Made by a program: the position numbers and the translations under genes
Part shown: positions 1-14,625 of the stretch, one piece after another
Layout: each line of letters opens with the position of its first letter
Position numbering within the stretch: position 1 is the first letter of the stretch
Notes under the pieces: generated by a model
The model's input: the letters and a program-made list of their open reading frames with translations, nothing else
Databases searched by the model: none
What the model was told of the DNA's origin: nothing
Source: Minisyncoccota bacterium
GTDB taxonomy: Bacteria; Patescibacteriota; Minisyncoccia; UBA6257
Length of the DNA: 64,000 nucleotides
Reading direction: 5' to 3'
Assembly: GCA_028694995.1 (NCBI GenBank)
Contig: JAQVJU010000002.1
Location: 2,046-66,045, forward strand

Positions 1-50
1 GGAATTGTCGGGTAATTAACTATTAAAACCAATAGTTACTTGGTTTTAAG

Positions 51-139
51 TTATCCCCAATAGACTTGACAAGGTTTTTATATTTGCTATACTAATAATG
101 CTGTCGTTTTTGGCTTGCCAAAGGCGACAGCATTTTTTT
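51..139 (+). repeat. Copy 1 of the repeated DnaA-box-like/promoter/hairpin module (TTATCCCCA variant - TTGACA - 16 nt - TATACT - hairpin GCTGTCG..CGACAGC - T7)
   Basis: Read directly. -35 TTGACA at 66-71, -10 TATACT at 88-93. Hairpin 100-131 followed by a T-tract. Near-identical to the modules at 2943, 5903, 6717 and 7563. Confidence 0.7.
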
Positions 140-257
140 ATCTCATATTATTTAGGAAGTTTTATATCTTTAATTCTTGACAAACTTATAATAAAGATAT
201 ATTATAACTCAATTAAGAACTTTGAAAACTTAATAAAAAAAAGAAAGGAGAGAAAAA

Positions 258-1379
258 ATGGAGAAGCTAATTGATTTTTTTCTATTTTTAATAGGAGTAA
301 GAAGAGAAAAGAAAATTCCTGTAAATTTTCAGCCGTCGGTTACTGTTTTAATCCCTGCTTACAAAGAAGAAGAAACAATAAAAGATACTATTTTAAGTAT
401 TCAGGCTCAGAGCTATCAAGTAGATGAAATTATTGTAATAGATGATTGCTCTAAGGACAAGACTGGTTTAATATCAAGATCTCTAGGGGCTAAAGTAGTT
501 CGTATCCCTAAAAATTCAGGGACTAAATCTAGGGCTCAAAATTTTGGTCTTAAGTTTGTTAAAACTGATTTAGTGATTACTGTTGATGCTGATACTATCC
601 TTGATCAAAAAGCGATAGAATTAATAATTCCTGCTATGAGTGATCGCAAAGTGCTTTCAGCTTGTGGGTTTGTTATTCCTCAAGTAATTAAAACTTTTTG
701 GGAAAGATGTCGCTTAATTCAGTATTTGTATTATATTAGTCTTAATAAAAATGCTCAATCTCACTGGCAGGTACCATTAGTGTCTTCAGGTTGTTTTTCA
801 GTTTTTAATACAAAGATGTTAAAAAAAATGGGTGGATTTCCTGAGGGGACGATAGTGGAGGATATGGATTTAACCTGGAGAGCCCATCTTGAAAAGAAAA
901 AAATTAAATTTATACCTGAAGCAGTTTGCTATCCAAAAGATCCAAATAATTGGCAACAATACAAGGCACAGGTAATGCGTTGGAATAGAGGATTTTTACA
1001 ATGTGTAAAAGAATATAAAGTATCATTGATAAAAAATCCTCGCTTATGCTTTTTTGTTGCTTGGTATCTTTTATCAGGGATTATCCAGCCTCTGTATTTA
1101 GGGTTTTTTATTTGGTATGTGTTTTGGTTTTTTTCAACAAAAGCCTATCTAGGGGAAGTAATTTTTATTTTAATATTTTTTGGACTTTTGTTGGAAATGT
1201 TAATTGTGTTTACTTTTGTTCTGATATCAGGAATTCGTTATAAGCACTTTAAAATAGCTTTAACCAGTTTTCCTTGCTATTGGTTAATAAGCCCAATTGA
1301 CACTTATTTGTTTGTAAATGCCCTAATACAAGAATGGGTTTTAGGGAGAAAACTTGAATCATGGGAAAAAGGGCATTGA
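258..1379 (+). CDS. Family 2 glycosyltransferase with C-terminal multi-pass membrane domain (processive polysaccharide synthase-like, PgaC/IcaA/cellulose-synthase-like architecture)
   Basis: N-terminal GT-A fold signatures (IPAYKEEETI, DDCSKD, VDAD = DXD). Hydrophobic C-terminal half with several predicted TM helices. RBS AAAGGAGAG upstream. Confidence 0.75.
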   Translation: MEKLIDFFLFLIGVRREKKIPVNFQPSVTVLIPAYKEEETIKDTILSIQAQSYQVDEIIVIDDCSKDKTGLISRSLGAKVVRIPKNSGTKSRAQNFGLKFVKTDLVITVDADTILDQKAIELIIPAMSDRKVLSACGFVIPQVIKTFWERCRLIQYLYYISLNKNAQSHWQVPLVSSGCFSVFNTKMLKKMGGFPEGTIVEDMDLTWRAHLEKKKIKFIPEAVCYPKDPNNWQQYKAQVMRWNRGFLQCVKEYKVSLIKNPRLCFFVAWYLLSGIIQPLYLGFFIWYVFWFFSTKAYLGEVIFILIFFGLLLEMLIVFTFVLISGIRYKHFKIALTSFPCYWLISPIDTYLFVNALIQEWVLGRKLESWEKGH

Positions 1380-1435
1380 AGGGAGGGATATACTTGATTG
1401 TAAAAAATATAAAAAAAGGAAAGGAGGTGAAATAA

Positions 1436-2209
1436 ATGTACGGAGGACCTCAAACTATATCTGGAAGTATAATTCATATTCTATGTCGTTACCCTATTTT
1501 AGTAGTTCCTATAGCTCTGGGCCTTATCTTTGGAATACCTAACTTATCTCAAGTTGCTGAAGATAGTTTACCTAGCTCAATGATAACTTTTGCTTTTGAT
1601 GATGGGTATTTTTCTACTTATGAAAAAGCTTTTCCTATTTTAGAAAAATATACATTTCCGGCTACGGTTTTTGTAATTTCTTCAGTAATTGGAGAACCAG
1701 GTCATATGACTGCGGAACAAATTCTAGAATTGGCAGATAAAGGATGGGAGATTGGTTCTCATACTGAAACTCATTCTGATTTAACTCAGCTTACTGATGA
1801 ACAATTAAAACATGAGCTTGTAAACTCAAAGCAACATCTTGAAGAACTGGGTTTAATAGTAAAGAACTTTGCCTCTCCTTATGGCAAGTATGACGAAAGG
1901 GTTATTAAAATGATAGCTAAGTATTATGATTCTCATCGAACCGCTTGGCCAGATGGGTTAAATGATTTACCCTTAGATAATTTAAATCGTTATTACTTGA
2001 AATCTGTTTCAGTTGAAGCTAGAACGACTATAGAAGAAGTGAAAGAGTGGGTAATAAAAGCAAAGAATGAAGGGAAATGGTTAATTCTCCTTTTCCATCG
2101 CATTGATGAAACAGGCGATTATAACTGGACCTCAAGGGATTTTGAAGAAATTGTTAAATTTGTGCACGAGGAAAAGTTTAAAGGAGTTTCAATTAAAGAA
2201 ATGAGGTGA
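1436..2209 (+). CDS. Polysaccharide deacetylase (NodB homology / CE4 family)
   Basis: N-terminal TM segment. CE4 motifs TFAFDDGY and GSHTETHSDL. RBS GGAGGTGA 7 nt upstream. Adjacent to the GT2 synthase. Confidence 0.8.
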   Translation: MYGGPQTISGSIIHILCRYPILVVPIALGLIFGIPNLSQVAEDSLPSSMITFAFDDGYFSTYEKAFPILEKYTFPATVFVISSVIGEPGHMTAEQILELADKGWEIGSHTETHSDLTQLTDEQLKHELVNSKQHLEELGLIVKNFASPYGKYDERVIKMIAKYYDSHRTAWPDGLNDLPLDNLNRYYLKSVSVEARTTIEEVKEWVIKAKNEGKWLILLFHRIDETGDYNWTSRDFEEIVKFVHEEKFKGVSIKEMR

Positions 2210-2355
2210 TGATTTTATAAAATGATAAAAGGGAAGATAAATCTTCCCTTTTTAATTTAAACCTTATATATTGACAAAATTGTATAAATGATATATAATC
2301 TTGATATATTTGAACTAGTAACTTGAAAATTAAAAAATGAAAGGAGGTGAAAGAA

Positions 2356-2898
2356 ATGAGAAAAAGATTGTTAATCTTAGTGGTTTTAATGGTATTATTC
2401 TTGGGTGCTTGTAGAGACGGAGCAATAATTCCTTCAGTGACAGAAGATATAGAGATTTGGGTAACTGGCTTTGAGCAAGAGGTATTCTGCAATAACGCTA
2501 AGGGTGTCACCAGGGTTTTTAATGGAGACTTACCTAAAGATTTGACAAGATGTTATGGTCCTCCTAGCTGTTGCCCTCCATGTAATTGCCCAGTATGTGA
2601 AGTATGTGAAGAATGCTCAGAATGTCCAACTTGCCCTTCTTGTGGACCTTGCTGCTGTTATTTGAAATGGGGAAATGTCTACGTTGATTACAAAATGAAG
2701 AATTTAGGGTTAAAGGATTTAACCGTTAAAAATGTTTGTTTTGAAATCACGTTTGAAGACAACACAAAAACTGTTAAATGCGTGGAATTACAAGAAGGTT
2801 TACTAGAGGGAGAAGTAAAAGGTAAACAAGCTAAATTCACTCTCTCTCCTGTCAAGAGAGTGATTTACGTTGTTGTGCAAAAAATAGAATATTATTAA
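2356..2898 (+). CDS. Cysteine-rich lipoprotein (signal peptide + lipobox LGAC; CxxC/CC cluster)
   Basis: Start chosen at the ATG preceded by AAGGAGGTGA. Lipobox L-G-A-C. A 30-residue tract CCPPCNCPVCEVCEECSECPTCPSCGPCCC. Confidence 0.55.
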   Translation: MRKRLLILVVLMVLFLGACRDGAIIPSVTEDIEIWVTGFEQEVFCNNAKGVTRVFNGDLPKDLTRCYGPPSCCPPCNCPVCEVCEECSECPTCPSCGPCCCYLKWGNVYVDYKMKNLGLKDLTVKNVCFEITFEDNTKTVKCVELQEGLLEGEVKGKQAKFTLSPVKRVIYVVVQKIEYY

Positions 2899-2942
2899 AA
2901 CCAAAAGGGACTATATTATATAGTCTCTTTTTCATTTTAAAA

Positions 2943-3031
2943 GTTATCCACAATAGACTTGACAAGGGATTTGGATTTGATATACTAATAATGCTGTCGT
3001 TTTTGGCTTGCCAAGGGCGACAGCATTTTTT
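2943..3031 (+). repeat. Copy 2 of the DnaA-box/promoter/hairpin module (TTATCCACA 2944-2952, TTGACA 2959-2964, TATACT 2981-2986, hairpin 2993-3024, T-tract)
   Basis: Read directly from the sequence. Confidence 0.7.
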
Positions 3032-3072
3032 ATTCCATAGTTTGCGAAATTATTAATTAATGAATAAAAGAC

Positions 3073-3199
3073 TTGACAATTTTTATTTATCATGTATACT
3101 GTTTTGTAGTGGGGTAAGCTTTTCCGGAAGAGCTTATAAAACCTATTTTCCAAAATTTTGGAGGTTTTAAAGTGGCGTTGAAAAACGCCACTTTTTTTT
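3073..3199 (+). ncRNA. Candidate small RNA: consensus sigma70 promoter (TTGACA 3073-3078, TATACT 3095-3100) driving a ~95-nt transcript that ends at the intrinsic terminator GTGGCG-TTGAAAAA-CGCCAC-T8 (3172-3199)
   Basis: Promoter spacing of 16 nt and a perfect terminator. An internal stem AAGCT-TTTCCGGAAG-AGCTT. No ORF above 9 codons. Confidence 0.4.
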
Positions 3200-3408
3200 A
3201 ACTTAATTCCTTGATTGTTTTAAAGAAGATCCTATTATTTATTGATAATATAATAATTAAGATTTACAAATTGAATTATTAAGTATTGATTAATAAAATT
3301 TTCTAATAATGATCTTTAAAATAACTCTTAAGAATTATTTTTTAAATTTAAAATTAAATTTTTAAAAATTTCCTTAAATTTGACAAATTTGTTTTTTATT
3401 TAAAAAAC

Positions 3409-3612
3409 TTGACAAGGACTTGACAAATAAAAAATAATAGAGTATCATGTAAGTACGGTGGGGTTCTCCCCTGGGTCTGCAAAGGCCCAGGGGAGACTAC
3501 TACTAAGTAGATAAACAATAAAAATGGTGGGATGCTCTCTTTTAAACAAATACAAAAGTTTATCTGCTTCCGAGGCAGATTAGTTAAATTGACGTTATTC
3601 GTCAATTTTTTT
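3409..3612 (+). ncRNA. Candidate structured small RNA (~160 nt): duplicated TTGACA (3409-3414, 3420-3425), 17-nt spacer, TATCAT (3443-3448), GC-rich stems, and terminator TTGACG-TTATTC-GTCAA-T7 (3589-3612)
   Basis: A strong 10-bp stem CTCCCCTGGG..CCCAGGGGAG, which is unusual against the AT-rich background. A second stem TCTGCTTC-CGA-GGCAGA. No plausible ORF. The antisense 69-aa ORF 3396..3605 is judged spurious. Confidence 0.45.
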
Positions 3613-3818
3613 AATTAACCACTAGATTAACTATTAGGGATTAAAAAAAGAATATTGCAGGAAGATTAGTGTTTGTGTTTTCCCCATATCAGAAATCCTC
3701 CTAATAGTTCATGATGGGACAATAGATCTATTAAAAGTGATTTTAATTTCCTTAATGATTAATTAAAAGATTATTTTGTTTCCTATGCATTTAATTATTT
3801 CAGATTTTAGTAAACATA

Positions 3819-4298
3819 ATGAATTTGATTAAACATAGAAAATTTTTACAATTATTATCATTTTTAGTAATAATAATTTGTTCTTTGTTATTTTTAATAA
3901 ATGATGTTGATGCTAAAAGAGGTTGTTGTTCTTGGCATGGCGGAGTATCTCATTGTGACTCATCGGTTGGGGGATATGTTTGTAATGATGGCACCTATAG
4001 TCCTTCTTGTACTTGCGGGGTTATAATCCCTGTTCCTATTCCTTCCCCAACTACTCTTGAGCCTACTACAACGACTACTAAACCTACAACTACAACAATA
4101 ATTGGTATAACACCCGCTGCTGTATTAGAAACAGAAATTCAAGAAAAAAACCTAGGAATAGAGGAAGAACTAGAATTTTCAGCTTCTGAAAAATTAATGG
4201 CACAAGTACATAAAGAAAACATTGGTATTTCTGCTTGGTGGTGGATAATAGGCATAGGGGCTATATCTTATTTGTTTGTCTATAAATTTAAAAAATAA
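3819..4298 (+). CDS. Secreted Cys/His-rich protein with Pro/Thr-rich linker and C-terminal TM anchor followed by basic tail (KFKK)
   Basis: N-terminal hydrophobic signal or anchor. Motif GCCSWHGGVSHCDSSVGGYVCNDGTYSPSCTC. Linker TTTTTKPTTTT. C-terminal TM segment. Confidence 0.5.
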   Translation: MNLIKHRKFLQLLSFLVIIICSLLFLINDVDAKRGCCSWHGGVSHCDSSVGGYVCNDGTYSPSCTCGVIIPVPIPSPTTLEPTTTTTKPTTTTIIGITPAAVLETEIQEKNLGIEEELEFSASEKLMAQVHKENIGISAWWWIIGIGAISYLFVYKFKK

Positions 4299-4334
4299 AA
4301 AACTAAAGGTCGAAAATTAATGAATTAAAAAAAT

Positions 4335-5846
4335 ATGAATAAAAAATTTCTTACAAAAACATTTGCAATTGCAATGGTATTAAGTTTATTACTTTCTAAT
4401 GGATTGATGTTAGGATTGGAGAGAGCAGAAGCAAAAGTAAGAAAAGAAGACCCTAGTAAAAATGGAAATGGGAATGGGAATGATGAATTATATCTTTGTC
4501 ATTTTGAAGATGAAGGAGATAATCCTTATACAAAGATACTAGGGTTTGAGAAGAATAGCATAGCTGGCGAGCATGATAAAGACGAAGATGATATTATTCC
4601 TAGTTATCTTTATACTTCAGACTGTGATGTGGAAAATCATAACTGTAAACTAAAAAAAATAGATTGGGGGAATTCTAAGACGCAAGGAAGTGTTTTGGGA
4701 GACTCTATTAATCTTGATGGGCATTTATGGCAAGGGTCACAAGAATTAGCTTCAATTATTGGGGATAGCACAAATATTAAGGTTTCTTTTTCAGATCCCC
4801 TTATGGCATATGTTATAGATCTTAAAATAAAAGAAAAAGATTCAAAAGGAAAAATATTATCTGAAAAAGATTATGCTTCTAAATGCCAAGGTCCAGAGGG
4901 TTGTACTCTTTCTCCGGAAGAAGGAATTAAGTTTTACTCTGTAAGTTGGGATCTGCAAAAAGTTAACAAATTTCACTATGAGTGTTATTATCCTGGTAAA
5001 AATTTGGAGAGTGGGCAAGACATTTTAAATAATAATTGCGAGGTTCCCTCAGAAAATGAAAATGGGGAAGGGAATGGGGAAGGGAATGGAGAAGGGGATG
5101 GAGAAGGGAATGGAGGAGGGAATGGAGAAGGAACTACAACTACTACAACAACAAGACCTGGTCCTACAGGTTCACATATTCCACCACAAGAAGCTCATGG
5201 GGAAGGCTCTTTAGGAGAACCTGGCCCTGGGGAGGGTATTGTAGCTGGTGCTGCTTGTGTTCCTTATATCCAAGAATATATTCAATATGGAGCTGATAAT
5301 GATCCATTTGAAGTTAGGAAATTACAAATCTTCTTAAATGGATATTTGGGATTGAATTTAGATGTTAATGGAATTTATGATTTAGAAACATTTGAAGCTG
5401 TAAAAACATTCCAACTTATGTTCAAGGATGATATTTTAGCTCCTTGGGTTGCAAATGGATGCTTACCTTCAAAAGAAATAGCTACGGGTTATGTTTATCG
5501 AACTACTAGTTGGGCGATTAATAAAGTTTTTTGCCCAGGAATGGAAATAGATATTTCTGATGAAATATGTTTTGGCTTAGGTGAAGGATTAGTTTTAGGA
5601 GAATCTATTGCCTTAGCTGATGATGGCTCAATGTCAGAAGGAGATATTTTAGATTTTCCTGTTAGTTCTGAACAAGAACCAGAAGAAGAAGTAATGGAAA
5701 TTTCAGAAACTGAAGATATAGAAACAACAGAATTAGAAGAAACAGAAGAAGAAACAGCAACTAATAAAGGAGCCATAATAGCTTTATTAGTTGTTTTAGC
5801 CTTAGGTGGCTTAGCTTACTTTATCTTTAGAGGAAAACGAACTTGA
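4335..5846 (+). CDS. Large secreted surface protein: signal peptide, GNGNGNG and GEGNGEGNG repeats, Thr7 linker, PG_binding_1-like domain, acidic E/T-rich tract, C-terminal TM anchor + RGKRT tail
   Basis: The segment VRKLQIFLNGYLGLNLDVNGIYDLETFEAVKTFQ matches the peptidoglycan-binding (PG_binding_1) consensus. The C-terminus AIIALLVVLALGGLAYFIFRGKRT forms a TM anchor plus basic tail. Confidence 0.6.
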   Translation: MNKKFLTKTFAIAMVLSLLLSNGLMLGLERAEAKVRKEDPSKNGNGNGNDELYLCHFEDEGDNPYTKILGFEKNSIAGEHDKDEDDIIPSYLYTSDCDVENHNCKLKKIDWGNSKTQGSVLGDSINLDGHLWQGSQELASIIGDSTNIKVSFSDPLMAYVIDLKIKEKDSKGKILSEKDYASKCQGPEGCTLSPEEGIKFYSVSWDLQKVNKFHYECYYPGKNLESGQDILNNNCEVPSENENGEGNGEGNGEGDGEGNGGGNGEGTTTTTTTRPGPTGSHIPPQEAHGEGSLGEPGPGEGIVAGAACVPYIQEYIQYGADNDPFEVRKLQIFLNGYLGLNLDVNGIYDLETFEAVKTFQLMFKDDILAPWVANGCLPSKEIATGYVYRTTSWAINKVFCPGMEIDISDEICFGLGEGLVLGESIALADDGSMSEGDILDFPVSSEQEPEEEVMEISETEDIETTELEETEEETATNKGAIIALLVVLALGGLAYFIFRGKRT

Positions 5847-5866
5847 AGGTTAGAAATTGGATAAAA

Positions 5867-5894
5867 ACAGGGCTAAATATAGCCCTGTTTTTTA
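5867..5894 (+). terminator. Intrinsic terminator of the 4335..5846 gene (ACAGGGCT-AAATAT-AGCCCTGT-T7)
   Basis: Perfect 8-bp GC-rich stem plus a T-tract. Confidence 0.7.
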
Positions 5895-5902
5895 TTTCTT
5901 AA

Positions 5903-5999
5903 GTTATCCACAAAAGACTTGACAAGGTTTTTATATTTGCTATACTATTAGTGCTGTCATTTAGAGAAGCTTGCTTCAATGAATGACAGCATTTTTTTT
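5903..5999 (+). repeat. Copy 3 of the module (TTATCCACA 5904-5912, TTGACA 5919-5924, TATACT 5941-5946, variant hairpin GCTGTCATT..AATGACAGC 5953-5990, T8)
   Basis: The stem is conserved and extended by compensatory changes while the loop is replaced. Confidence 0.7.
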
Positions 6000-6157
6000 A
6001 TAATTTTTTGATAAAAGAAGTGATTAGTCATCTCTTTTTTTATTTGTTAATTAATTAAAGATAGTTTTAATTTATATTGACTTTAAGTATTTAAAATGGT
6101 ATAATTATAAAAGGATAAAAGAGTTCTTTTAAAAATAAAAATAAGGAGGAAAAGAAA

Positions 6158-6694
6158 ATGGAAGAGAGAAAAAAGAAAGTTTTTATTTTAATTTTTGCTG
6201 TGGTTTTTATATTCATTTTAGTAGATTATGTAAATTGGAGATTATCCCATAATTGGGAGATTGTAGATACCAATTTACCAGTTGAAACCATAAACAGCAC
6301 CGTATGGAGAAGCGCAAGTATAGATATACTTGATCCTATCAAATCTCCTCCAAAAAGTTATGAGTATTCAAATCTTAGGATAGCGGCATTTAAGGTACGG
6401 TACCCTAAAGCTAAGGGAGGAGGATATGTTCATGAAGTTTTTCTTAGGGAGTGGTTTAAGAGGAGTAACTTAAAAGTTCGCTATACGGGCTTTGAAGGGA
6501 TACCGGATTTTTATATTGCTGTAGAATTCATACAGGGAAGAATGGAAATCATCAGTGATAGCAAGTTATATAATTATAAAGGAGAAATCTTTATAGAATT
6601 ATTTTCCAATAATAAGAATTTACTGGCTCAAAAAAGAATTAAGGTAAACATAAATAACAAACCGCCAGAGGTAAAAGAATTAACAGGGCTTTAA
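6158..6694 (+). CDS. Hypothetical N-terminally membrane-anchored protein, paralog A of a tandem pair
   Basis: Strong RBS AAGGAGGA. N-terminal TM helix. Shares the motifs YPK.K, NLK and F..V.FI.GR..I...Y.GEI.I.L with the 6967..7539 product. Confidence 0.5.
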   Translation: MEERKKKVFILIFAVVFIFILVDYVNWRLSHNWEIVDTNLPVETINSTVWRSASIDILDPIKSPPKSYEYSNLRIAAFKVRYPKAKGGGYVHEVFLREWFKRSNLKVRYTGFEGIPDFYIAVEFIQGRMEIISDSKLYNYKGEIFIELFSNNKNLLAQKRIKVNINNKPPEVKELTGL

Positions 6695-6706
6695 AGCCCT
6701 GTTTTT
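6683..6706 (+). terminator. Intrinsic terminator overlapping the stop codon of 6158..6694 (ACAGGGCT-TTAA-AGCCCTGT-T5)
   Basis: The stop codon TAA lies in the hairpin loop. Confidence 0.65.
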
Positions 6707-6716
6707 CATTTCTTGA

Positions 6717-6806
6717 GTTATCCACAAAAGACTTGACAAGGTTTTTAAATTTGCTATACTAATAATGCTGTCGTTTTTGGCTTGCCAGAAGCGGCAGCAT
6801 TTTTTT
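6717..6806 (+). repeat. Copy 4 of the module (TTATCCACA 6718-6726, TTGACA 6733-6738, TATACT 6755-6760, hairpin GCTGTCG..CGGCAGC with a U-G wobble, T7)
   Basis: Read directly from the sequence. Confidence 0.7.
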
Positions 6807-6966
6807 ATAATTTTTTGATAAAAGAGATGATTTATCATCTCTTTTTTAATGGTTAATTAATTAAAGATAGTTTTAATTTATATTGACTTTAATCATTTAA
6901 AATGGTATAATTATAAAAAGATAAAAGAGTTCTTTTAAAAATAAAAATTAAAGAGGAGAGAAAAAA

Positions 6967-7539
6967 ATGAAAAAGGTTTTTATAGTTATTCTAATTATAA
7001 TTATAGGGTTATTTTTAATAGATTTTATAGGTTATGTAATAAAATCAAGCTATAAAGAGAATAAGGAGCTGGGGGGAAGTTGGGAAATCGAAAGTTTAGA
7101 CCTGCCAATCATAATAAGAAAAAACTGTATCGTAGTGGGGGGTCCAAGTTGGGAACCAGAAGACCCTTTGCCCTCAAGAGTTGAAAGGGATGTATTTTTA
7201 GAAATGAGGGTAGCCAATTTTAGAATATACTACCCTAAAACAAAAAATATAGTCCATGAAATTGATCTCCAAATGTGGGAAAAGCAGGGAAACTTGAAGT
7301 TATATGTCGCTAGACCTGAAGAGTCGAACCCCTTCAAAATGAGTACTGTAAAGTTTATAGAGGGGAGAGTAGATATCTGGCTTAGAATGGAAGTCGGTAA
7401 GTATGAGGGGGAGATTCATATTCAGCTAATTAATAATGACGGGATATTAATAGGTGAAGGCAAGGCCTTTGTGGAAGTAAATATAGAAAAGGGGGTGCTA
7501 GAGATACTAGAAGAAGAATTTAATATAACAGGGTCTTAA
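6967..7539 (+). CDS. Hypothetical N-terminally membrane-anchored protein, paralog B of the tandem pair
   Basis: A ~150-bp upstream region, including a TTGACT-17-TATAAT promoter and RBS, is about 90% identical to that of 6158. The proteins are much more diverged than these flanks. Confidence 0.5.
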   Translation: MKKVFIVILIIIIGLFLIDFIGYVIKSSYKENKELGGSWEIESLDLPIIIRKNCIVVGGPSWEPEDPLPSRVERDVFLEMRVANFRIYYPKTKNIVHEIDLQMWEKQGNLKLYVARPEESNPFKMSTVKFIEGRVDIWLRMEVGKYEGEIHIQLINNDGILIGEGKAFVEVNIEKGVLEILEEEFNITGS

Positions 7540-7562
7540 GGCTCTGTTTTTATTATTTCTGA

Positions 7563-7652
7563 GTTATCCACAAAAGACTTGACAAGGTTTTTATATTTGC
7601 TATACTAATAATGCTGTCGTTTTTGGCTTGCCAGAAGCGGCAGCATTTTTTT
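7563..7652 (+). repeat. Copy 5 of the module (TTATCCACA 7564-7572, TTGACA 7579-7584, TATACT 7601-7606, hairpin 7613-7644, T7)
   Basis: Read directly from the sequence. Confidence 0.7.
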
Positions 7653-7744
7653 ATAATTCTTATTATTGACAAAAAGACAATAACAAGATATTATCTAAAT
7701 TAGATATTTAGTACTTTGAAAATTAAAAAAGGAGATATTAAAAA

Positions 7745-8113
7745 ATGAAAAGGAAATTGGTTTTAGGAGTTTTTGTATTTTTGATTTTAATTATTTTTTC
7801 TTGTTTTGCTAATGCTCAATATAATTTTCTTTCTGAACAATCAAATTGGGGAATTGAGCATTTAAAAGAAAAGTATCACATAAAAGATAAGCAAAATAAA
7901 GAAGAAATAATAGTAGAGGGTTTTATCTGGGGAGTTATCGTCCCAGAAAATGAGGGATATTCTTTTATAGAATATACAGAAATGATTGAGGATAAAGAAT
8001 ATATAATAACAGAAATAATTATAGAAAATCCTCAAGGGTCTATTAGGATAGTATGGGGACCAGGGGCACAGAATAATCCTTTAGACGTCCCTAAAATTAT
8101 AGTGAGGAGGTGA
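7745..8113 (+). CDS. Small secreted hypothetical protein (signal peptide ...FANA-Q)
   Basis: ORF with RBS GGAGATA. N-terminal hydrophobic segment. Confidence 0.4.
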   Translation: MKRKLVLGVFVFLILIIFSCFANAQYNFLSEQSNWGIEHLKEKYHIKDKQNKEEIIVEGFIWGVIVPENEGYSFIEYTEMIEDKEYIITEIIIENPQGSIRIVWGPGAQNNPLDVPKIIVRR

Positions 8114-8119
8114 AAAGAA

Positions 8120-8398
8120 ATGAGAGATGAAATGAAAGAATTTCTATTCGTATGGATAGGGATTCTGGCTATTGTAGGATTGGTTTCCAAATTTGTCCAT
8201 GGCCTATATATAAGAACAGTTCTTAGTTTTCTGGAAAAATATATGGATACATCATTGGCCATGACATTGTTTTGGATTGGGTGGTTATTCTTTCTTTTGC
8301 TGGTTTATAACATTTACGTGAATATTACCCTTTACGACAATTGGGATTGGGAAAAAAATAAAATAAAAGATTGGGAAGAAAAAAGAAAAAGGAGGTAA
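8120..8398 (+). CDS. Small integral membrane hypothetical protein (2 TM)
   Basis: RBS GGAGGTGA immediately upstream. Two hydrophobic helices. Confidence 0.35.
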   Translation: MRDEMKEFLFVWIGILAIVGLVSKFVHGLYIRTVLSFLEKYMDTSLAMTLFWIGWLFFLLLVYNIYVNITLYDNWDWEKNKIKDWEEKRKRR

Positions 8399-8754
8399 GG
8401 ATTTTGAAGAACAGGATAGATAAAGTTCCTAATATTGAGGTTGTAATAGAGGATAGGGAGAGAAATAAAAAAATTGTCATTGCTCAATATCCTAAATCAA
8501 TTATTCTACCTGAAAGTTACTGTGAGGATATGGCAGAGGTAATTTTTTCTTTTTTGAAAAAAAATACCGGCAAATTTACTGGTAAGATAAAGAAAGATTT
8601 TAAGAACTTTGTTTTTTACGAAAAAATGGTAAATAAACAACCATTTGAAGTAAAAAACAACAATAATAATTTTAAAAAAAGGAAGACAAAATATAGGAAT
8701 AGTAAAAAACTAACCTTCTTAAGAAAGAGATAGAATGGAATTATTAAAAAGTAT

Positions 8755-8826: not shown

Positions 8827-9891
8827 ATGAATTTATCAATTGGAATTGTGGGTTTGCCAAATGTGGGAAAATCTACTCTTTTTGAGATTATTACTAAAAA
8901 ACAAGTAGATAGGGAAAATTATCCTTTTTGTACGATAGAGCCTAATGTTGGTGTGGTGGCAGTGCCTGATATTCGGGTTGATAAATTAGCTCATTTAAAT
9001 CAATCAGAAAAAAAGATCTATACCACTGTAGAGTTTGTTGATATTGCTGGATTAGTTAAAGGAGCAAGTAAAGGAGAGGGTTTGGGTAATCAGTTTTTAG
9101 CTCAAATCAGAGAAACTGATGAGATTGTTTGCGTTTTAAGATGTTTTCAAAATGATAAAATTGTTAATACCTTGGATCAAATAGATCCATTATTGGAAAA
9201 AGAGATTTTAGAAACAGAATTGATTTTAAAAGATTTAGAAACAGTTAATAAAAGATTGACTTCTTTAGAAAAAGAAATCAAAACAGGAAAAAAAAGCATG
9301 ATGGAAGAAGAAAGAATATTAGCTAAGGCACAGGATTTATTGCAACAAGGCCAGATTCTTTTTGAACAAGAGTGGGAAGAAGAGGAAAAGAAAGTTCTTG
9401 AAACTTATCAATTATTAACATTAAAACCTAGATTGTATTTGTTAAATGGACAAGAGAGTGAAGTACCAGCTCATATCTTAGAAACTTTTAATAAGAATAA
9501 TTGGCCATATTTAATTATGGATGTGGCCATGGAATTAGAAACCATAGATTTATCTGAAAGCGATAGAATAGATCTTGGGTTATCGCCTCAATCAGAAATT
9601 AATACCTTGATTCAATCAACATACAAGTTATTGGATTTAATAACTTTTTTTACTATTGAATCTAATCAAACCAGAGCTTGGATTTTATTAAAAGGATTAA
9701 AAGCTCCTGATGCTGGGGGAGTAATTCATACAGATTTTCAAGAAAAATTCATTAAGGCTGAGATTATTAATTGGGAAAAACTATTAGAAGCTGGTTCTTG
9801 GAGTTTAGCTAGACAAAAAGGCTGGCTTCAATTAGAAGGTAAGGATTATGTGGTTCAAGATGGTGATGTGATTGTGTTTAAGCATGGATAA
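8827..9891 (+). CDS. ychF: Ribosome-binding ATPase YchF (Obg-family GTPase)
   Basis: G1 motif GIVGLPNVGKST. TGS-domain C-terminus ending DGDVIVFKHG. Confidence 0.9.
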   Translation: MNLSIGIVGLPNVGKSTLFEIITKKQVDRENYPFCTIEPNVGVVAVPDIRVDKLAHLNQSEKKIYTTVEFVDIAGLVKGASKGEGLGNQFLAQIRETDEIVCVLRCFQNDKIVNTLDQIDPLLEKEILETELILKDLETVNKRLTSLEKEIKTGKKSMMEEERILAKAQDLLQQGQILFEQEWEEEEKKVLETYQLLTLKPRLYLLNGQESEVPAHILETFNKNNWPYLIMDVAMELETIDLSESDRIDLGLSPQSEINTLIQSTYKLLDLITFFTIESNQTRAWILLKGLKAPDAGGVIHTDFQEKFIKAEIINWEKLLEAGSWSLARQKGWLQLEGKDYVVQDGDVIVFKHG

Positions 9892-11244: not shown

Positions 11245-12099
11245 ATGAAGAAAAAGGTATATATTATTAACAAATCAGGAGAAAAAGAACTGTTTTCCAA
11301 ACAAAAAGTTTACAATAGCGCTCGGAGAGTTGGCGCCTCAAAAGAATTAGCCGAATCAATTGCCACAACGATTAGAAAAGAAATCTTTCCAGGTATGACC
11401 ACTTTTGAGATTTATGAAAGAGTGGAAGAGATATTAGATAAAGAATATCCTAAAGGTAGTATTCGTTTTCGTTTAAAAGAAGCCATTATGGCCTTAGGAC
11501 CAAGTGGTTTTCCTTTTGAAAAATATATTGGAGATGTTTTACAAAGAATGGGTTTTAAAGTAGAGCTTAATCAATATGTTGATGGAGCTTGTGTCACTCA
11601 TGAAGTAGATGTTGTGGCCGTAGAAAAAAAATATTGTTTGATAGGAGAATGTAAATATCATACCTTGCCTGGGAAAAAAACAGATTTAAGAATTGGTTTA
11701 CATCATTATGCTCGTTGTCTAGATATTGAATTAGGAGATTATTGTAAAAAAAAGTTTAAAAATCTTAAACCAAGGCCAATTATTATTACTAATAATAAAT
11801 TCACTAACCAATTGTTAAAGTATGCTGAATGTGTTGGTTTAGATTTATTAGGTTGGAAATATCCTCGAGGCACTGGGTTAGAATATATTGTAGAATCAGA
11901 ACAGTTTTATCCTATTACCATCTTACCTTCTTTTAAAGATGAGTTATTAGAAGCGTTTTCTAAAGAGAAGATAATGCTAGCTCAGGAATTATTAAATATG
12001 GAGGTGACAGAATGTGCAAAAAAATTACAAGTTTCTAAACAAAAAATCTCTACTCTTAAAAAAGAAGCAGAGATTTTGTTTGCAAAAAACAGCTTTTAG
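11245..12099 (+). CDS. ATP-cone domain fused to Mrr-like (PD-(D/E)XK) restriction-endonuclease domain
   Basis: N-terminal ATP-cone (VYIINKSGEKELFSKQKVYNS). Nuclease core HEVDVVAVEK...IGECKYH. Confidence 0.55.
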   Translation: MKKKVYIINKSGEKELFSKQKVYNSARRVGASKELAESIATTIRKEIFPGMTTFEIYERVEEILDKEYPKGSIRFRLKEAIMALGPSGFPFEKYIGDVLQRMGFKVELNQYVDGACVTHEVDVVAVEKKYCLIGECKYHTLPGKKTDLRIGLHHYARCLDIELGDYCKKKFKNLKPRPIIITNNKFTNQLLKYAECVGLDLLGWKYPRGTGLEYIVESEQFYPITILPSFKDELLEAFSKEKIMLAQELLNMEVTECAKKLQVSKQKISTLKKEAEILFAKNSF

Positions 12100-12204
12100 A
12101 TAAAAAAATGCTGTTGACTTGAAGAGCAAGCTCATCTAATCAACAGCACCTTTATTGTATCAAATGGAGAATGTTTGTCAAGTCAAATAACTATTATAAA
12201 AATT

Positions 12205-14625
12205 ATGAAGAAAAAATACATTTTATGGTTTAAAGAAATAGGCATTAAAGATGTCTTAGATGTTGGTGGTAAAAACGGATCTTTAGGAGAGATGTATAAT
12301 AGCCTTTCTAAAAAAGGAGTTAATATTCCTAATGGTTTTGCTCTAACCTCGGCTGCTTATTGGCATTTTATTAAAGAAAACAATTTTGAAAAACAATTAA
12401 AAGATATTTTTGCTGGTTTTAATCCAAAGAGTATAAAGAGCTTACAAGAAATTGGTAGAAAATCTAGAAGACTTATCTTAAGTGGAAAATTTCCTGAAGA
12501 TTTGAAAAAAGAAATCTTCAAAGCCTATAAAACATTAGAAAAAAAATATGGCAAAAATTGTGAAACAGCAGTGAGGTCTTCTGGAGTAGCAGAAGATTCT
12601 CCCAGGGATTCTTTTGCTGGTCAATTTGAAACATTCTTAAATGTTAAAGGCGAAGAAGATTTATTAATTGCTATTAGGAAATGCTTGGCTTCTTCTTTTA
12701 ATGATCGAGTGATTACTTATCGGGAAGAGAAAAAACTTTCTCATTTTAAATTTGCTCTTTCAATTGGCGTGCAAAAGATGGTTAGATCAGATTTATCTTC
12801 TTCGGGCATTATGTTTACCTTAGACACAGAATCAGGTTTTCCTAATATTATTTTGATTAATTCTATCTATGGTTTAGGAGAAATGATTGTTAAGGGATTG
12901 ATTACGCCAGATGAATTTTATGTTTTTAAACCAACCTTGGCTCAAGGTTATGAAGCGATTATTAGAAAAGATTTAGGCAGGAAAACAAAAAAATACATTT
13001 ATGATAAAAAGGGAGGCATTAAAGAAATGCCTGTTTCTCTAAAAGACCAAGAAAAGTTTTCTTTAAATGATAAAGAAATTTTAACCTTGGCTAAGTGGGG
13101 AGTAATTATTGAAGATTACTATTCCAAATTGAATAAAAGATGGATGCCTCAGGATATTGAATGGGCTAAGGATGGTAAAACAGGAGAATTATTCATTGTT
13201 CAATCAAGGCCAGAAACAGTTCATGCAGTCAGATCAAATATTTATCAAGAATATAAACTTAAAACAACAAAAAAACCCTTTTTAACTGGAATTGCTATTG
13301 GTAATAAGATAGGCACAGGCAAGGTAAGAGTGGTTACTAGTGTTTCCAAACTTTCTGAATTTAAAAAAGGAGAGGTTTTAGTCACTAAGATGACAGACCC
13401 AGATTGGACCTCTGTGTTTCCAATGGCTTCAGCCATTATTACTGATGAAGGCAGTAAGACTTGTCATGCCGCTATTATCTCTAGGGAATTAGGCGTGCCT
13501 TGTATTGTTGGTGCTCGGGAAGCCACTAAGAAATTAAAAAATGGGCAAGAGGTAACTGTTGATTGCACTCAGGGATTAGATGGCAGGATTTTTGATGGCA
13601 AGGTATCATTTGAAATTAAAGAATACAATTTTAAGAAATTCCCAAAGGTAAAAACCAAGATTATGATGAATGTTGGCGCTCCTGAAATTGCTTTTTCATC
13701 TTCATTTTTGCCCAATGAAGGTGTAGGATTGGCTAGAGAAGAATTTATCATAGCTGAAAAAATCAGAATTCATCCTTTGGCTTTGTATCATTATATGAAA
13801 CTTAAAAAAGAGAATACAAAGATTAAAGATAAATCTCAAAAAGCAAAGATGGATAGAATTATTCATCAAATAGAAAAATTAACTATTGAGCATAAAGATA
13901 AGAAAGAATATTTTATTAAAGAATTAGCAGAAGGCATTGCTCAAATCGGAGCGGCTTTTTATCCGAAAGAAGTGATAGTGAGGTTTTCTGATTTTAAAAC
14001 CAATGAATATCGTAATTTAATAGGAGGGGAATTGTATGAAGGAGAAGAAGCTAATCCAATGTTAGGCTTTAGAGGCGCTTGTCGCTATATTGACCCTCAG
14101 TTTAAACCAGCTTTCTTAATGGAATGCGAGGCGATTAAAAGAGCAAGAGAGGTATTTGGTTTAAAAAATATTTCAATCATGGTTCCATTTTGTCGAACCA
14201 TAAAAGAGGGCAAAGCTTCAAAAAAATTAATTCAAGAATCAGGTTTGTTAAGTAATAGCCAACCACCTAAGCTATATGTAATGTGTGAGATTCCTTCTAA
14301 TGTTATCTTAGTAGAAGAATTCCTTGATATTTTTGATGGCATGAGTATTGGTTCAAATGATTTAACTCAATTAGCCCTTGGTATTGATCGAGATAATGCA
14401 GTTATTCAAAAGATAGGTGATGAAAGAGATGAAACAGTAAAGAGAATGATTGCGACTGTAATTAAAGCCTGTAAGAGAAGAAAGAAATATGTAGGCATTT
14501 GCGGTCAGGCCCCAAGTGATTTTATGGATTTTGCTAAATTCTTAGTAGAGCAGGGAATAGAAAGTATGTCTTTGAATCCAGATACAGTGATTAAAACTAT
14601 TTTAGAAATTAGTAAAATAAAATAG
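12205..14625 (+). CDS. ppsA: Phosphoenolpyruvate synthase (pyruvate, water dikinase)
   Basis: N-terminal GGKNGSLGEM. Central phosphohistidine domain (TDEGSKTCHAAIISRELGVPCIVG). C-terminal PEP-utilising domain. Confidence 0.85.
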   Translation: MKKKYILWFKEIGIKDVLDVGGKNGSLGEMYNSLSKKGVNIPNGFALTSAAYWHFIKENNFEKQLKDIFAGFNPKSIKSLQEIGRKSRRLILSGKFPEDLKKEIFKAYKTLEKKYGKNCETAVRSSGVAEDSPRDSFAGQFETFLNVKGEEDLLIAIRKCLASSFNDRVITYREEKKLSHFKFALSIGVQKMVRSDLSSSGIMFTLDTESGFPNIILINSIYGLGEMIVKGLITPDEFYVFKPTLAQGYEAIIRKDLGRKTKKYIYDKKGGIKEMPVSLKDQEKFSLNDKEILTLAKWGVIIEDYYSKLNKRWMPQDIEWAKDGKTGELFIVQSRPETVHAVRSNIYQEYKLKTTKKPFLTGIAIGNKIGTGKVRVVTSVSKLSEFKKGEVLVTKMTDPDWTSVFPMASAIITDEGSKTCHAAIISRELGVPCIVGAREATKKLKNGQEVTVDCTQGLDGRIFDGKVSFEIKEYNFKKFPKVKTKIMMNVGAPEIAFSSSFLPNEGVGLAREEFIIAEKIRIHPLALYHYMKLKKENTKIKDKSQKAKMDRIIHQIEKLTIEHKDKKEYFIKELAEGIAQIGAAFYPKEVIVRFSDFKTNEYRNLIGGELYEGEEANPMLGFRGACRYIDPQFKPAFLMECEAIKRAREVFGLKNISIMVPFCRTIKEGKASKKLIQESGLLSNSQPPKLYVMCEIPSNVILVEEFLDIFDGMSIGSNDLTQLALGIDRDNAVIQKIGDERDETVKRMIATVIKACKRRKKYVGICGQAPSDFMDFAKFLVEQGIESMSLNPDTVIKTILEISKIK

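What the first reader, a model, noticed from the sequence alone, without database searches (positions are those of the whole stretch)
5867..5999. Promoter boxed between two intrinsic terminators: a transcription unit whose only product is a ~45-nt hairpin
For copies 3, 4 and 5 the upstream gene already has its own terminator (5867-5894; 6683-6706 with the stop codon in the loop; 7529-7553). The module promoter therefore sits between two terminators, and the next gene has a separate promoter further downstream (for example TTGACT-17-TATAAT at about 6880-6910). The predicted transcript is just the conserved hairpin plus U-tract. Such terminator-promoter-terminator mini-units are not a standard annotated feature class. 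They could act as decoy or insulator elements or as tiny regulatory RNAs.
Basis: partly seen in the sequence, partly recalled or inferred. Interest (0 to 1): 0.6.

Follow-up and report, generated by a model that had tools for sequence, protein, structure and literature searches.

The report
Tiny hairpin-RNA genes, multi-copy, CPR bacterium
The "promoter boxed between terminators" is real and is one of six copies of a conserved, self-contained gene for a roughly 45-nucleotide hairpin RNA in a Paceibacteria (CPR) genome; the family is undescribed, its role is unknown, and it is probably not an insulator.

Summary
At 5863-5999 the upstream gene's terminator is followed by a near-consensus sigma-70 promoter (TTGACA, 16 nt, TGcTATACT). 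Four nucleotides after the -10 comes a 19-pair hairpin with a CUUG tetraloop and a U8 tract.

The window holds six such modules: five on the + strand within 1-7661 and one on the - strand at 12100-12195. The hairpin never occurs without the promoter. Twenty distinct hairpin versions from related metagenome contigs keep 94% pairing, and 10 of 19 pairs show compensatory changes. G·U pairs make the sense strand fold much better than the antisense strand.

Modules occupy the same positions next to proteins that are only 38-50% identical. One site is antisense to both neighbouring genes and is conserved down to 66% YchF identity, where the RNA has two long hairpins (about 125 nt). These facts argue against a leader or attenuator and against a passive repeat.

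Best reading: an autonomous, multi-copy small-RNA gene family that is not in Rfam and usually carries a DnaA-box-like TTATCC(A/C)CA upstream. What the RNA does is not established.

Across CPR contigs, 73% of hits to this promoter type are followed by a terminator within 130 nt.

The parts
5863..5897 (+). Intrinsic terminator of the upstream gene 4335-5846 (13-pair stem plus a T-run).
   Evidence: Terminator scan; sequence.
5904..5912 (+). TTATCCACA box (DnaA-box consensus), 6 nt upstream of the -35. It is an optional upstream element of the module.
   Evidence: All 4 exact sites in the 64 kb lie in modules. The box is present in 27 of 37 distinct module promoters.
5919..5946 (+). Module promoter of copy 3: -35 TTGACA, 16-nt spacer, extended -10 TGcTATACT.
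   Evidence: The hexamers and TG are invariant. The spacer keeps its length but varies in sequence across 37 versions.
5951..5999 (+). Copy 3 hairpin RNA. The stem pairs 5951-5969 with 5974-5992, the CUUG loop is 5970-5973 and the U8 tract is 5992-5999. The predicted transcript starts at about 5951-5953.
   Evidence: Fold -22.9 kcal/mol, z = -6.5. Covariance-model hit of 68 bits on the sense strand against 24 bits antisense. Covariation.
6014..6041 (+). Second, weaker hairpin with a T-run between the module and the gene promoter. It looks like a bidirectional terminator. The equivalent in copy 4 is at 6820-6847.
   Evidence: -8.9 and -11.8 kcal/mol. The STE_68 copy shows a compensatory AGAG/CTCT to GGGA/TCCC change.
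6077..6105 (+). Separate promoter (TTGACT-17-TATAAT with TG) for the downstream gene 6158-6694.
47..140 (+). Module copy 1: box TTATCCCCA 51-59, -35 at 66-71, hairpin 98-133, U7 tract.
2940..3033 (+). Module copy 2: box 2944-2952, -35 at 2959-2964, hairpin 2991-3026. It follows the terminator at 2903-2931 of gene 2347-2898.
   Evidence: Homologues of gene 2347-2898 in L025 and L032 are also followed by a module.
6714..6808 (+). Module copy 4: box 6718-6726, -35 at 6733-6738, hairpin 6765-6800, U7 tract. It is preceded by the terminator at 6682-6703.
7560..7654 (+). Module copy 5: box 7564-7572, -35 at 7579-7584, hairpin 7611-7646, U7 tract. It is preceded by the terminator at 7527-7548. The gene promoter follows at 7666-7694.
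   Evidence: The L028 homologue of gene 7745-8113 has a module in the same place.
12100..12195 (-). Module copy 6, probably the ancestral site. The promoter is TTGACA-16-TGaTACAAT (12181-12153), the hairpin is 12149-12108 and the U7 tract is 12109-12103. It is antisense to both flanking genes: the AF1548-like/ATP-cone gene 11245-12099 and PPDK.
   Evidence: The same site and orientation are found in L125, L126, L128, L129, L130, L131 and L133.

Best explanation
Each module is an autonomous gene for a very small structured RNA.

A near-consensus sigma-70 promoter with an extended -10 fires 0-3 nt before the base of a 17-21-pair stem. The stem is capped by a stable tetraloop and followed by U7-8, so RNA polymerase should terminate after about 42-50 nt. 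The released product would be a blunt 5'-triphosphate hairpin with a U-tail. This step is inferred from sequence rules and has not been measured.

The six copies in the window are sibling genes of one family, restricted to a Paceibacteria (CPR) clade. The founder copy lies antisense between the AF1548-like gene and PPDK. In more distant relatives it encodes a two-hairpin RNA of about 125 nt. In the window's lineage the gene multiplied within the variable island between rplJL and ychF.

The flanking terminators simply close neighbouring transcription units. The module's own terminator is also its RNA body.

The conserved TTATCC(A/C)CA box just upstream of the -35 is probably an operator for DnaA or another factor (inferred).

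Almost every nucleotide is locked in a helix and no conserved single-stranded seed exists. The RNA therefore most likely acts through a protein that reads double-stranded RNA or U-tails, rather than by antisense pairing. Examples would be RNase III-type or double-stranded-RNA-binding proteins, 3'-end binders, or a sponge or decoy role. This last step is the weakest.
For: - Promoter and hairpin are an obligate unit. Every hairpin in 726 kb (regex) and 333 kb (covariance model) has the promoter at a fixed distance. The stem starts 4 nt after the -10 in 48 of 53 copies.
- The promoter shows a selection signature. CTTGACAA, TG and TATAcT are invariant, while the 16-nt spacer keeps its length but varies in sequence over 37 versions.
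- Selection acts at the RNA level on the sense strand. Twenty distinct hairpins are 94.4% paired, 10 of 19 pairs have changes on both sides, and 0 of 500 shuffles reach this. Each hairpin has 1-6 G·U pairs, giving -21 to -27 kcal/mol for the sense strand against -9 to -21 for the antisense strand. Model scores are 42-73 bits sense against 18-36 bits antisense.
- Conservation exceeds that of the flanks. Modules keep their positions next to proteins of 38-50% identity. Module identity there is 74-85%, against a 58-65% background in the flanks.
- The modules are independent of their neighbours. The antisense c6 site is conserved in seven loci, down to 66% YchF identity. Other copies are convergent with the next gene.
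- The RNA body matters. The L131 and L133 homologues carry two long hairpins of about 26 pairs, the first without a U-tract. L127 adds a 5' hairpin.
- The 5'-arm motif UGCU...UUUAGAG recurs across distant versions.
- In the window, the only strong-promoter-to-terminator units of 140 nt or less are the six modules, one other small unit at 3073, and one marginal candidate at 6782.
Against: - There is no expression data. The start site, termination efficiency and RNA stability are all inferred.
- The hairpin has no conserved loop or bulge motif. The tetraloops are CUUG, GCAA or UUCG, which is also what a pure terminator would look like.
- No partner protein or target has been identified. No antisense targets are enriched in the 64 kb.
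- Copies within one genome are very similar, so part of the apparent conservation could reflect gene conversion or recent duplication.
- The covariation shuffle control does not correct for phylogeny.
Confidence: 0.55

Rival explanations
1. The module is a DNA-level element. What is selected is a DnaA-box-flanked strong promoter that recruits RNA polymerase or DnaA. It could act as a decoy or sink, as an insulator or roadblock, or as a 'loading pad' from which polymerase slides after termination to neighbouring promoters. On this view the hairpin exists only to stop transcription at once, and the RNA is a by-product.
For: - The promoter and box are the most conserved parts.
- The hairpin loops are generic stable tetraloops.
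- Modules sit directly upstream of gene promoters. For example, the copy 5 U-tract ends at 7653 and the next -35 starts at 7666.
- RNA polymerase can stay on the DNA after intrinsic termination and reinitiate nearby in either orientation (PMC6978380, abstract seen). That would tolerate the inverted copies.
- 73% of hits to this promoter class in CPR contigs terminate within 130 nt.
Against: - The two-hairpin (L131, L133) and extra-hairpin (L127) versions add RNA that termination does not need.
- A 5'-arm sequence motif is conserved beyond what structure requires.
- The box is missing from 10 of 37 promoter versions.
- One box per module, spread over 12 kb, is not a DnaA-titration cluster, and GC skew shows no origin here.
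Confidence: 0.17
2. The module is a conditional promoter-proximal terminator, that is, an attenuator or antitermination switch. The module promoter would drive the downstream gene when a factor suppresses the hairpin terminator, as with lambda PR'-tR' and the Q protein.
For: - Most copies point the same way as the next gene.
- The promoter is constitutive-looking and followed at once by a terminator.
- The extra terminator in copies 3 and 4 would fit processive antitermination.
Against: - The best-conserved copy is antisense to both neighbours.
- Four other sites are convergent with the next gene.
- Downstream genes have their own strong promoters.
- The transcript has no sequence 5' of the stem that could form an alternative antiterminator.
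- No antiterminator gene was seen among the Pfam-annotated neighbours.
Confidence: 0.1
3. The module is a repeat with no function of its own. It would be a duplicated or mobile promoter-terminator cassette (MITE-, Correia- or REP-like), spread by duplication and recombination in a variable island.
For: - There are six copies in 12 kb and none in the other 52 kb.
- Copies 3-5 flank paralogous genes.
- A cassette indel between the window and STE_68 (a 420-aa ORF at L003 3777-5039) is bounded by modules. Hairpin types are also shuffled between positions.
Against: - Positions are conserved across genomes whose flanking proteins are 38-50% identical.
- The c6 site is conserved down to 66% YchF identity.
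- Compensatory changes and sense-strand G·U pairs show purifying selection on an RNA.
- The promoter lies outside the inverted repeat.
- No transposase gene was identified, and no copy was found in viral contigs.
Confidence: 0.08

Closest known systems
Multi-copy 'sibling' small-RNA genes, each with its own promoter and intrinsic terminator. Examples recalled from memory, not tested here: NsiR1 tandem array in Anabaena, LhrC1-5 in Listeria, csRNA1-5 in Streptococcus, Qrr1-5 in Vibrio.
   Same: - Several near-identical small genes lie in intergenic regions.
- Each has an orphan promoter with a shared upstream operator-like box and a Rho-independent terminator.
- Some copies are clustered.
   Different: - Those RNAs are 60-150 nt and have single-stranded seed regions that pair with mRNAs.
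- Here the terminator hairpin is the whole RNA, at about 45 nt, with a 4-nt loop and no seed.
- No Rfam family matches.
Lambda-type PR'-tR' unit (short '6S' transcript) and the oop RNA. Both are promoters followed closely by a terminator.
   Same: A strong, constitutive-looking promoter has a default product that is a short terminated RNA. Such by-product RNAs can themselves be functional (PMC7547250, abstract seen).
   Different: - There is no phage context and no Q-like gene.
- The transcript is 45 nt rather than 77-194 nt.
- There are copies antisense to or convergent with their neighbours, so it is not a gate for downstream genes.
Single-hairpin antisense RNAs such as RNA-OUT of IS10, or CopA and Sok-type RNAs.
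   Same: The product is a small, very stable stem-loop RNA made from its own promoter.
   Different: - Those RNAs overlap their target gene and use a 6-7-nt or longer loop, or a 5' tail, for kissing interactions.
- Here the loop is a closed tetraloop and no overlapping target exists.
Promoter-bearing, hairpin-forming intergenic repeats, such as Neisseria Correia elements and REP/BIME or ERIC.
   Same: Multi-copy intergenic inverted repeats that can supply promoters or terminators and that mark rearrangement breakpoints.
   Different: - In the module the promoter is outside the inverted repeat.
- Positions are syntenic across deep divergence.
- Selection is strand-specific at the RNA level.
- There are no terminal repeats, and no transposase gene was identified.

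Membership tests
Sigma-70 promoter | -35 TTGACA and -10 TATAAT-like hexamers at 16-18 nt spacing, with an optional TGn extended -10. | tested here: met
   TTGACA-16-TGcTATACT, 11 of 12 matches plus TG. The hexamers are invariant and the spacer varies in sequence across 37 versions.
Sigma-70 promoter | A mapped transcription start and demonstrated promoter activity. | not testable with these tools
   This needs dRNA-seq or in-vitro transcription.
Intrinsic (Rho-independent) terminator | A stable stem that is G+C-rich at its base, followed immediately by a run of at least 5-8 U. | tested here: met
   17-21 pairs, -21 to -27 kcal/mol, a UGC/GCA base and U7-8.
Independent trans-encoded small-RNA gene | An orphan promoter plus a terminator in an intergenic region, conserved with structure-preserving changes. 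| tested here: met
Independent trans-encoded small-RNA gene | A conserved single-stranded seed, and targets complementary to it. | tested here: not met
   Only a 4-nt loop and the U-tail are unpaired. Perfect 11-mer antisense matches in the window are below the shuffled expectation. This test covers only 64 kb.
Independent trans-encoded small-RNA gene | A detectable discrete transcript. | not testable with these tools
   No transcriptome is available for this lineage.
Transcription attenuator or riboswitch leader | An alternative antiterminator structure or ligand domain 5' of the terminator, and a fixed same-strand link to a downstream gene. | tested here: not met
   The stem starts 4 nt after the -10, so no 5' RNA is available. 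There are antisense and convergent copies. The downstream genes have their own promoters.
DnaA box, oriC or datA-type cluster | A 9-mer matching TTATNCACA. | tested here: met
   TTATCCACA occurs in 4 of the 5 plus-strand modules, and all exact sites in the 64 kb are in modules. Many copies instead have TTATCCCCA, which departs from the consensus.
DnaA box, oriC or datA-type cluster | Several boxes clustered within a few hundred bp, a nearby DNA-unwinding element, and a GC-skew switch or a dnaA/dnaN neighbourhood. | tested here: not met
   There is one box per module, 0.8-3 kb apart. GC skew is positive throughout 1-46 kb. The neighbouring genes are rplJL, GT2, ychF and PPDK.
DnaA box, oriC or datA-type cluster | Binding of DnaA to the box. 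| not testable with these tools
   This needs EMSA or ChIP.
MITE, REP or Correia-type mobile repeat | Terminal inverted repeats that bound the element, target-site duplication, and presence/absence polymorphism at otherwise conserved sites. | tested here: not met
   The inverted repeat covers only the 3' half. Sites are syntenic across deep divergence. Target-site duplications were not examined systematically.
Any Rfam 15 family | A score at or above the family's gathering threshold. | tested here: not met
   Only tRNA-Lys reaches threshold in the window. Permissive scans gave chance-level hits only.

The most novel reading that the evidence does not exclude
The unit is a new kind of regulatory device and not a classical small RNA. 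It would be a DnaA-box-gated, maximal-strength promoter that fires and terminates within about 45 nt. Either the act of transcription or the generic 5'-triphosphate double-stranded hairpin would carry the function. The act of transcription could load or recycle RNA polymerase onto neighbouring promoters, or titrate DnaA and polymerase. The hairpin could act, for example, as an RNase III or double-stranded-RNA-binding-protein sponge. Such hairpin-only mini-genes would then be a general feature of CPR genomes, since 73% of this promoter class ends within 130 nt.
Probability: 0.15. Interest if true: 0.8.

Novelty: new variant of a known kind. Interest (0 to 1): 0.5.

Why it matters
CPR/Patescibacteria make up a large share of bacterial diversity, yet in two literature searches I found no study of their non-coding RNAs. 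These bacteria have very small genomes.

This work defines a conserved, probably highly expressed tiny-RNA family. It provides a covariance model, a founder locus and an expansion history.

It also shows that 'strong promoter to hairpin to U-tract' mini-units are common in these genomes. If the RNAs, or the act of making them, prove functional, they would be a compact regulatory layer in organisms whose regulation is poorly understood. They might also link DnaA status to surface-protein islands.

If they turn out to be ordinary small RNAs, the result is still a new RNA family worth adding to annotation pipelines, which at present leave these intergenic regions blank.

Tried and rejected
1. Known RNA family. 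Rfam gathering and permissive scans of the window, the c6 site, the L131 homologue and 20 metagenome loci found nothing for this element. The only known RNAs found were tRNAs and one DUF3800-V RNA, which lies in L020 just downstream of a hit to this promoter.

2. Small peptide. An AUG or GUG sits at the base of the stem. However, it is CUG in some copies, hairpin lengths differ by non-multiples of 3, there is no stop codon before the terminator, and the changes are compensatory rather than synonymous. Rejected.

3. Replication origin or DnaA-titration cluster. There is no skew switch, no dnaA or dnaN, and the boxes are dispersed. L100 and L122, which have the box plus promoter and further DnaA-like boxes, are not dnaA loci.

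4. Phage origin. A pattern scan of viral contigs gave two unrelated hits.

5. Antisense targets. Perfect 11-mer complementarity within the window is not above the shuffled expectation.

6. Leader of the downstream gene. Rejected on orientation and on the absence of 5' RNA.

7. A MAFFT alignment of hairpins of unequal length misplaced the indels. It was replaced by a covariance-model alignment.

8. No literature was found on CPR small RNAs or on DnaA-box-driven small RNAs.

Full report
**What is at the coordinates.** The window is about 30% G+C. Its closest public relative is a Candidatus Paceibacterota genome assembled from a metagenome, STE_68, which is 90-94% identical and syntenic.
- A 13-pair terminator of gene 4335-5846 lies at 5863-5892.
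- A TTATCCACA box lies at 5904-5912.
- The -35 TTGACA is at 5919-5924, followed by a 16-nt spacer and the extended -10 TGcTATACT at 5938-5946.
- Four nucleotides later, a 19-pair stem pairs 5951-5969 with 5974-5992. It has a CUUG tetraloop and is followed by eight U residues to 5999.
- A weaker second hairpin with a T-run follows at 6014-6041.
- The downstream gene's own promoter is at 6077-6105.
- For copies 4 and 5, the stop codon of the upstream gene sits in the loop of that gene's terminator, at 6692-6694 and 7537-7539.

**Copy number and chance.** Repeat finding and a covariance model built here (R1) find exactly six copies in 64 kb.
- The copies are at 47-140, 2940-3033, 5900-5999, 6714-6808 and 7560-7654 on the + strand, and at 12195-12100 on the - strand.
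- The 31-nt promoter core is found 4 times, against 0 expected.
- A scan of both strands for promoters with at least 11 of 12 matches followed by a terminator within 140 nt returned the six modules, one other small unit at 3073, and a marginal candidate at 6782 that overlaps module 4.

**Promoter and hairpin form one unit.** The regex scan of 726 kb (window plus fetched loci) and the model search of 333 kb found no hairpin without the promoter. One locus, L127, has an extra 5' hairpin inserted between the two.
- Across 37 distinct promoter versions, CTTGACAA, the TG and TATAcT are invariant. The spacer keeps its length of 16 nt while its sequence varies.
- The stem begins 4 nt after the -10 in 48 of 53 copies.
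- By the usual 6-8-nt rule, transcription would therefore start inside the first three stem nucleotides. The RNA would be essentially hairpin plus U-tail, 42-50 nt long. This is inferred, not measured.

**The hairpin is selected as RNA on the sense strand.**
- Twenty distinct hairpins aligned to R1 are 94.4% paired. Ten of 19 pairs show changes on both sides, and 0 of 500 column shuffles reach these values. Shifted registers give 34-66% pairing. The shuffle control does not remove phylogenetic signal.
- Each version has 1-6 G·U pairs. The sense strand therefore folds at -21 to -27 kcal/mol, while the antisense strand ranges from -9 to -21.
- Model scores are 42-73 bits on the sense strand and 18-36 bits on the antisense strand.
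- The loops are always stable tetraloops: CUUG here, and GCAA or UUCG in distant homologues.

**Conservation in position.**
- Homologues of protein 2347-2898, at 38-49% identity, in L025 and L032 are flanked by modules.
- The homologue of 7745-8113 in L028, at 50% identity, has a module upstream, as copy 5 does.
- Module identity at these sites is 74-85%, against a 58-65% background in the flanks.
- I used YchF (8827-9891) as an anchor to fetch syntenic contigs at graded distance. The minus-strand copy just 3' of the AF1548-like/ATP-cone gene is present, in the same antisense orientation, in L125 and L126 (YchF 88%), L128 (74%), and L129 and L130 (73%).
- In L131 (69%) and L133 (66%) the same site carries the same AGTTATCCACAA box and a TTGAC(G/A)-16-TGCTATAAT promoter. 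There the RNA is about 125 nt and has two hairpins of about 26 pairs each; the fetched 132-nt stretches fold at -57 to -58 kcal/mol, z about -9.
- In L134 only the box and the -35 remain.
- L132, L135 and L136 are not syntenic at this site. L132 has no match to the model or the regex; L135 and L136 were not scanned for the module.
- The additional copies occur only in the closer clade, within a variable island between rplJL and ychF.

**What this excludes.**
- Leader or attenuator. The most conserved copy is antisense to both neighbours, and four other sites are convergent with the next gene. No RNA exists 5' of the stem to form an antiterminator, and the downstream genes have their own strong promoters.
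- Functionless repeat. This fits poorly with deep synteny and compensatory evolution. Even so, modules do mark cassette boundaries. STE_68 has an extra 420-aa ORF bracketed by two modules where the window has a single module, and hairpin types are shuffled between positions.
- Origin or DnaA-titration cluster. This is excluded by the GC skew, the gene content and the dispersion of the boxes.
- Peptide coding. This is excluded by frame-breaking length changes and CUG variants.

**Most likely mechanism.** The module is an autonomous small-RNA gene, one of a sibling family.
- The flanking terminators merely close neighbouring units in a compact genome.
- The RNA body grows by adding hairpins in L127, L131 and L133, and a 5'-arm motif (UGCU..UUUAGAG) persists across distant versions. 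I therefore favour the RNA itself as the selected product over a purely DNA-level role.
- The RNA is almost entirely helical. The window contains no enriched antisense matches. A protein-binding or sponge role is therefore more plausible than base-pairing, but this is inference only.
- The TTATCC(A/C)CA box is present in 27 of 37 promoter versions. It also occurs upstream of an unrelated two-hairpin RNA class in other CPR contigs. It matches the DnaA-box consensus and suggests control by DnaA or another factor. This is untested.

**Rivals.**
- DNA-level promoter element: confidence 0.17. It would act as a decoy, an insulator, or a polymerase 'loading pad'. Post-termination sliding and reinitiation of RNA polymerase is documented in PMC6978380, whose abstract I saw.
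- Conditional terminator: confidence 0.10.
- Functionless repeat: confidence 0.08.

**Wider pattern.** A promoter-only pattern scan of metagenome contigs returned more than 119 loci.
- Of 100 distinct hits, 73 are followed by a hairpin plus T-run within 130 nt, at a median of 49 nt from the -10. The figure for random positions is 20%.
- At least eight recurrent tiny-RNA classes appear. Only one of those tested is in Rfam: DUF3800-V.
- The 'mini transcription unit' is therefore a common and apparently undescribed feature of these genomes.

**Novelty and score.** The architecture is that of a small-RNA gene, which is a known kind. The family is new to Rfam. It is unusual in that the terminator hairpin is the entire RNA, in being multi-copy, and in carrying a DnaA-box-like element. 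I rate it a new variant of a known kind, with interest 0.5.

Noticed in passing
window 3066-3194: A second small unit lies right after module 2. It has the same AAAGACTTGACAA -35 context and a TATACT -10, then about 90 nt of RNA ending in an 11-pair terminator at 3169-3194. It is conserved in STE_68 (L001). It has no Rfam match above chance. It contains GGAGG-N7-GUG and a 9-codon ORF that overlaps the terminator.
   Followed up: partly
window 3400-3608: A third small unit in the same 900-nt intergenic region. It has overlapping tandem -35 boxes (TTGACAAGGACTTGACAAAT) and then about 155 nt of RNA starting GGUGGGG and ending at the terminator 3586-3608. A similar GGUGGGG... unit follows a module in L128 (about 9637-9710).
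   Followed up: partly
L004-L122 (metagenome loci): The promoter pattern CTTGACAAG-N3-TT-N5-TTG-N-TATACT is widespread in CPR-like contigs. 73 of 100 distinct hits are followed by a terminator within 130 nt. At least eight recurrent tiny-RNA classes appear, for example ACUGCCUUCC..UUCG..GGCAGU and CACUCUGGAGU..GCUCCAGA. Only the RNA just downstream of the promoter hit in L020 (DUF3800-V) is in Rfam.
   Followed up: partly
L045, L078, L082, L094, L099, L111, L010 (metagenome loci): A different two-hairpin RNA class of about 75 nt also has a (G/A)TTATCCACA box 5-12 nt upstream of the same promoter type. The box is therefore not specific to the hairpin family studied here.
   Followed up: no
window 6682-6703 and 7527-7548: The stop codons of genes 6158-6694 and 6967-7539 lie in the TTAA loop of each gene's own terminator. 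The coding sequence therefore supplies the 5' arm of the terminator.
   Followed up: yes
window 258-8733 versus L128 7279-10001 and L130 3439-10001: The interval between rplJ-rplL and ychF is a variable island. In L128 it is about 1.7 kb and holds a tRNA, a 70-aa ORF and HSP20. In the window it exceeds 8.5 kb and holds GT2, a polysaccharide deacetylase and small secreted or membrane proteins without Pfam hits. STE_68 has an extra 420-aa ORF bracketed by modules, plus a third hairpin type behind the same promoter (L003, about 3659).
   Followed up: partly
window 6158-6694 and 6967-7539: These are tandem paralogous small proteins (178 and 190 aa) with an N-terminal hydrophobic segment and no Pfam family. 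The STE_68 homologues are only 32-45% identical, although the genomes are 90-94% identical at the DNA level elsewhere. These proteins are evolving fast.
   Followed up: partly
window 5050-5143: A 12-nt tandem repeat encodes a (G-N/E-G-E)n low-complexity tract inside the 503-aa protein 4335-5846. The protein has a weak PG_binding_1 domain and a C-terminal hydrophobic anchor. The STE_68 homologue is 745 aa.
   Followed up: no
window 12150-12210: PPDK probably starts at the ATG at 12205, not the TTG at 12175. Its upstream region overlaps the divergent module-6 promoter, so the two promoters would be back to back within about 50 nt.
   Followed up: partly
L134 6480-6560 (minus strand): At the conserved c6 site of a 69%-YchF relative, only AGTTATCCAC-N8-CTTGACA survives. 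There is no -10 and no hairpin, so this looks like a decayed copy of the module.
   Followed up: no
window 6782-6811 and 7628-7657: A TTGCCA-18-TATAAT promoter-like match is formed by the module's loop region plus the TATAAT right after the U-tract. In copy 4 it would start a transcript that is only the second small hairpin. It is not conserved in copy 1 and is probably fortuitous.
   Followed up: partly
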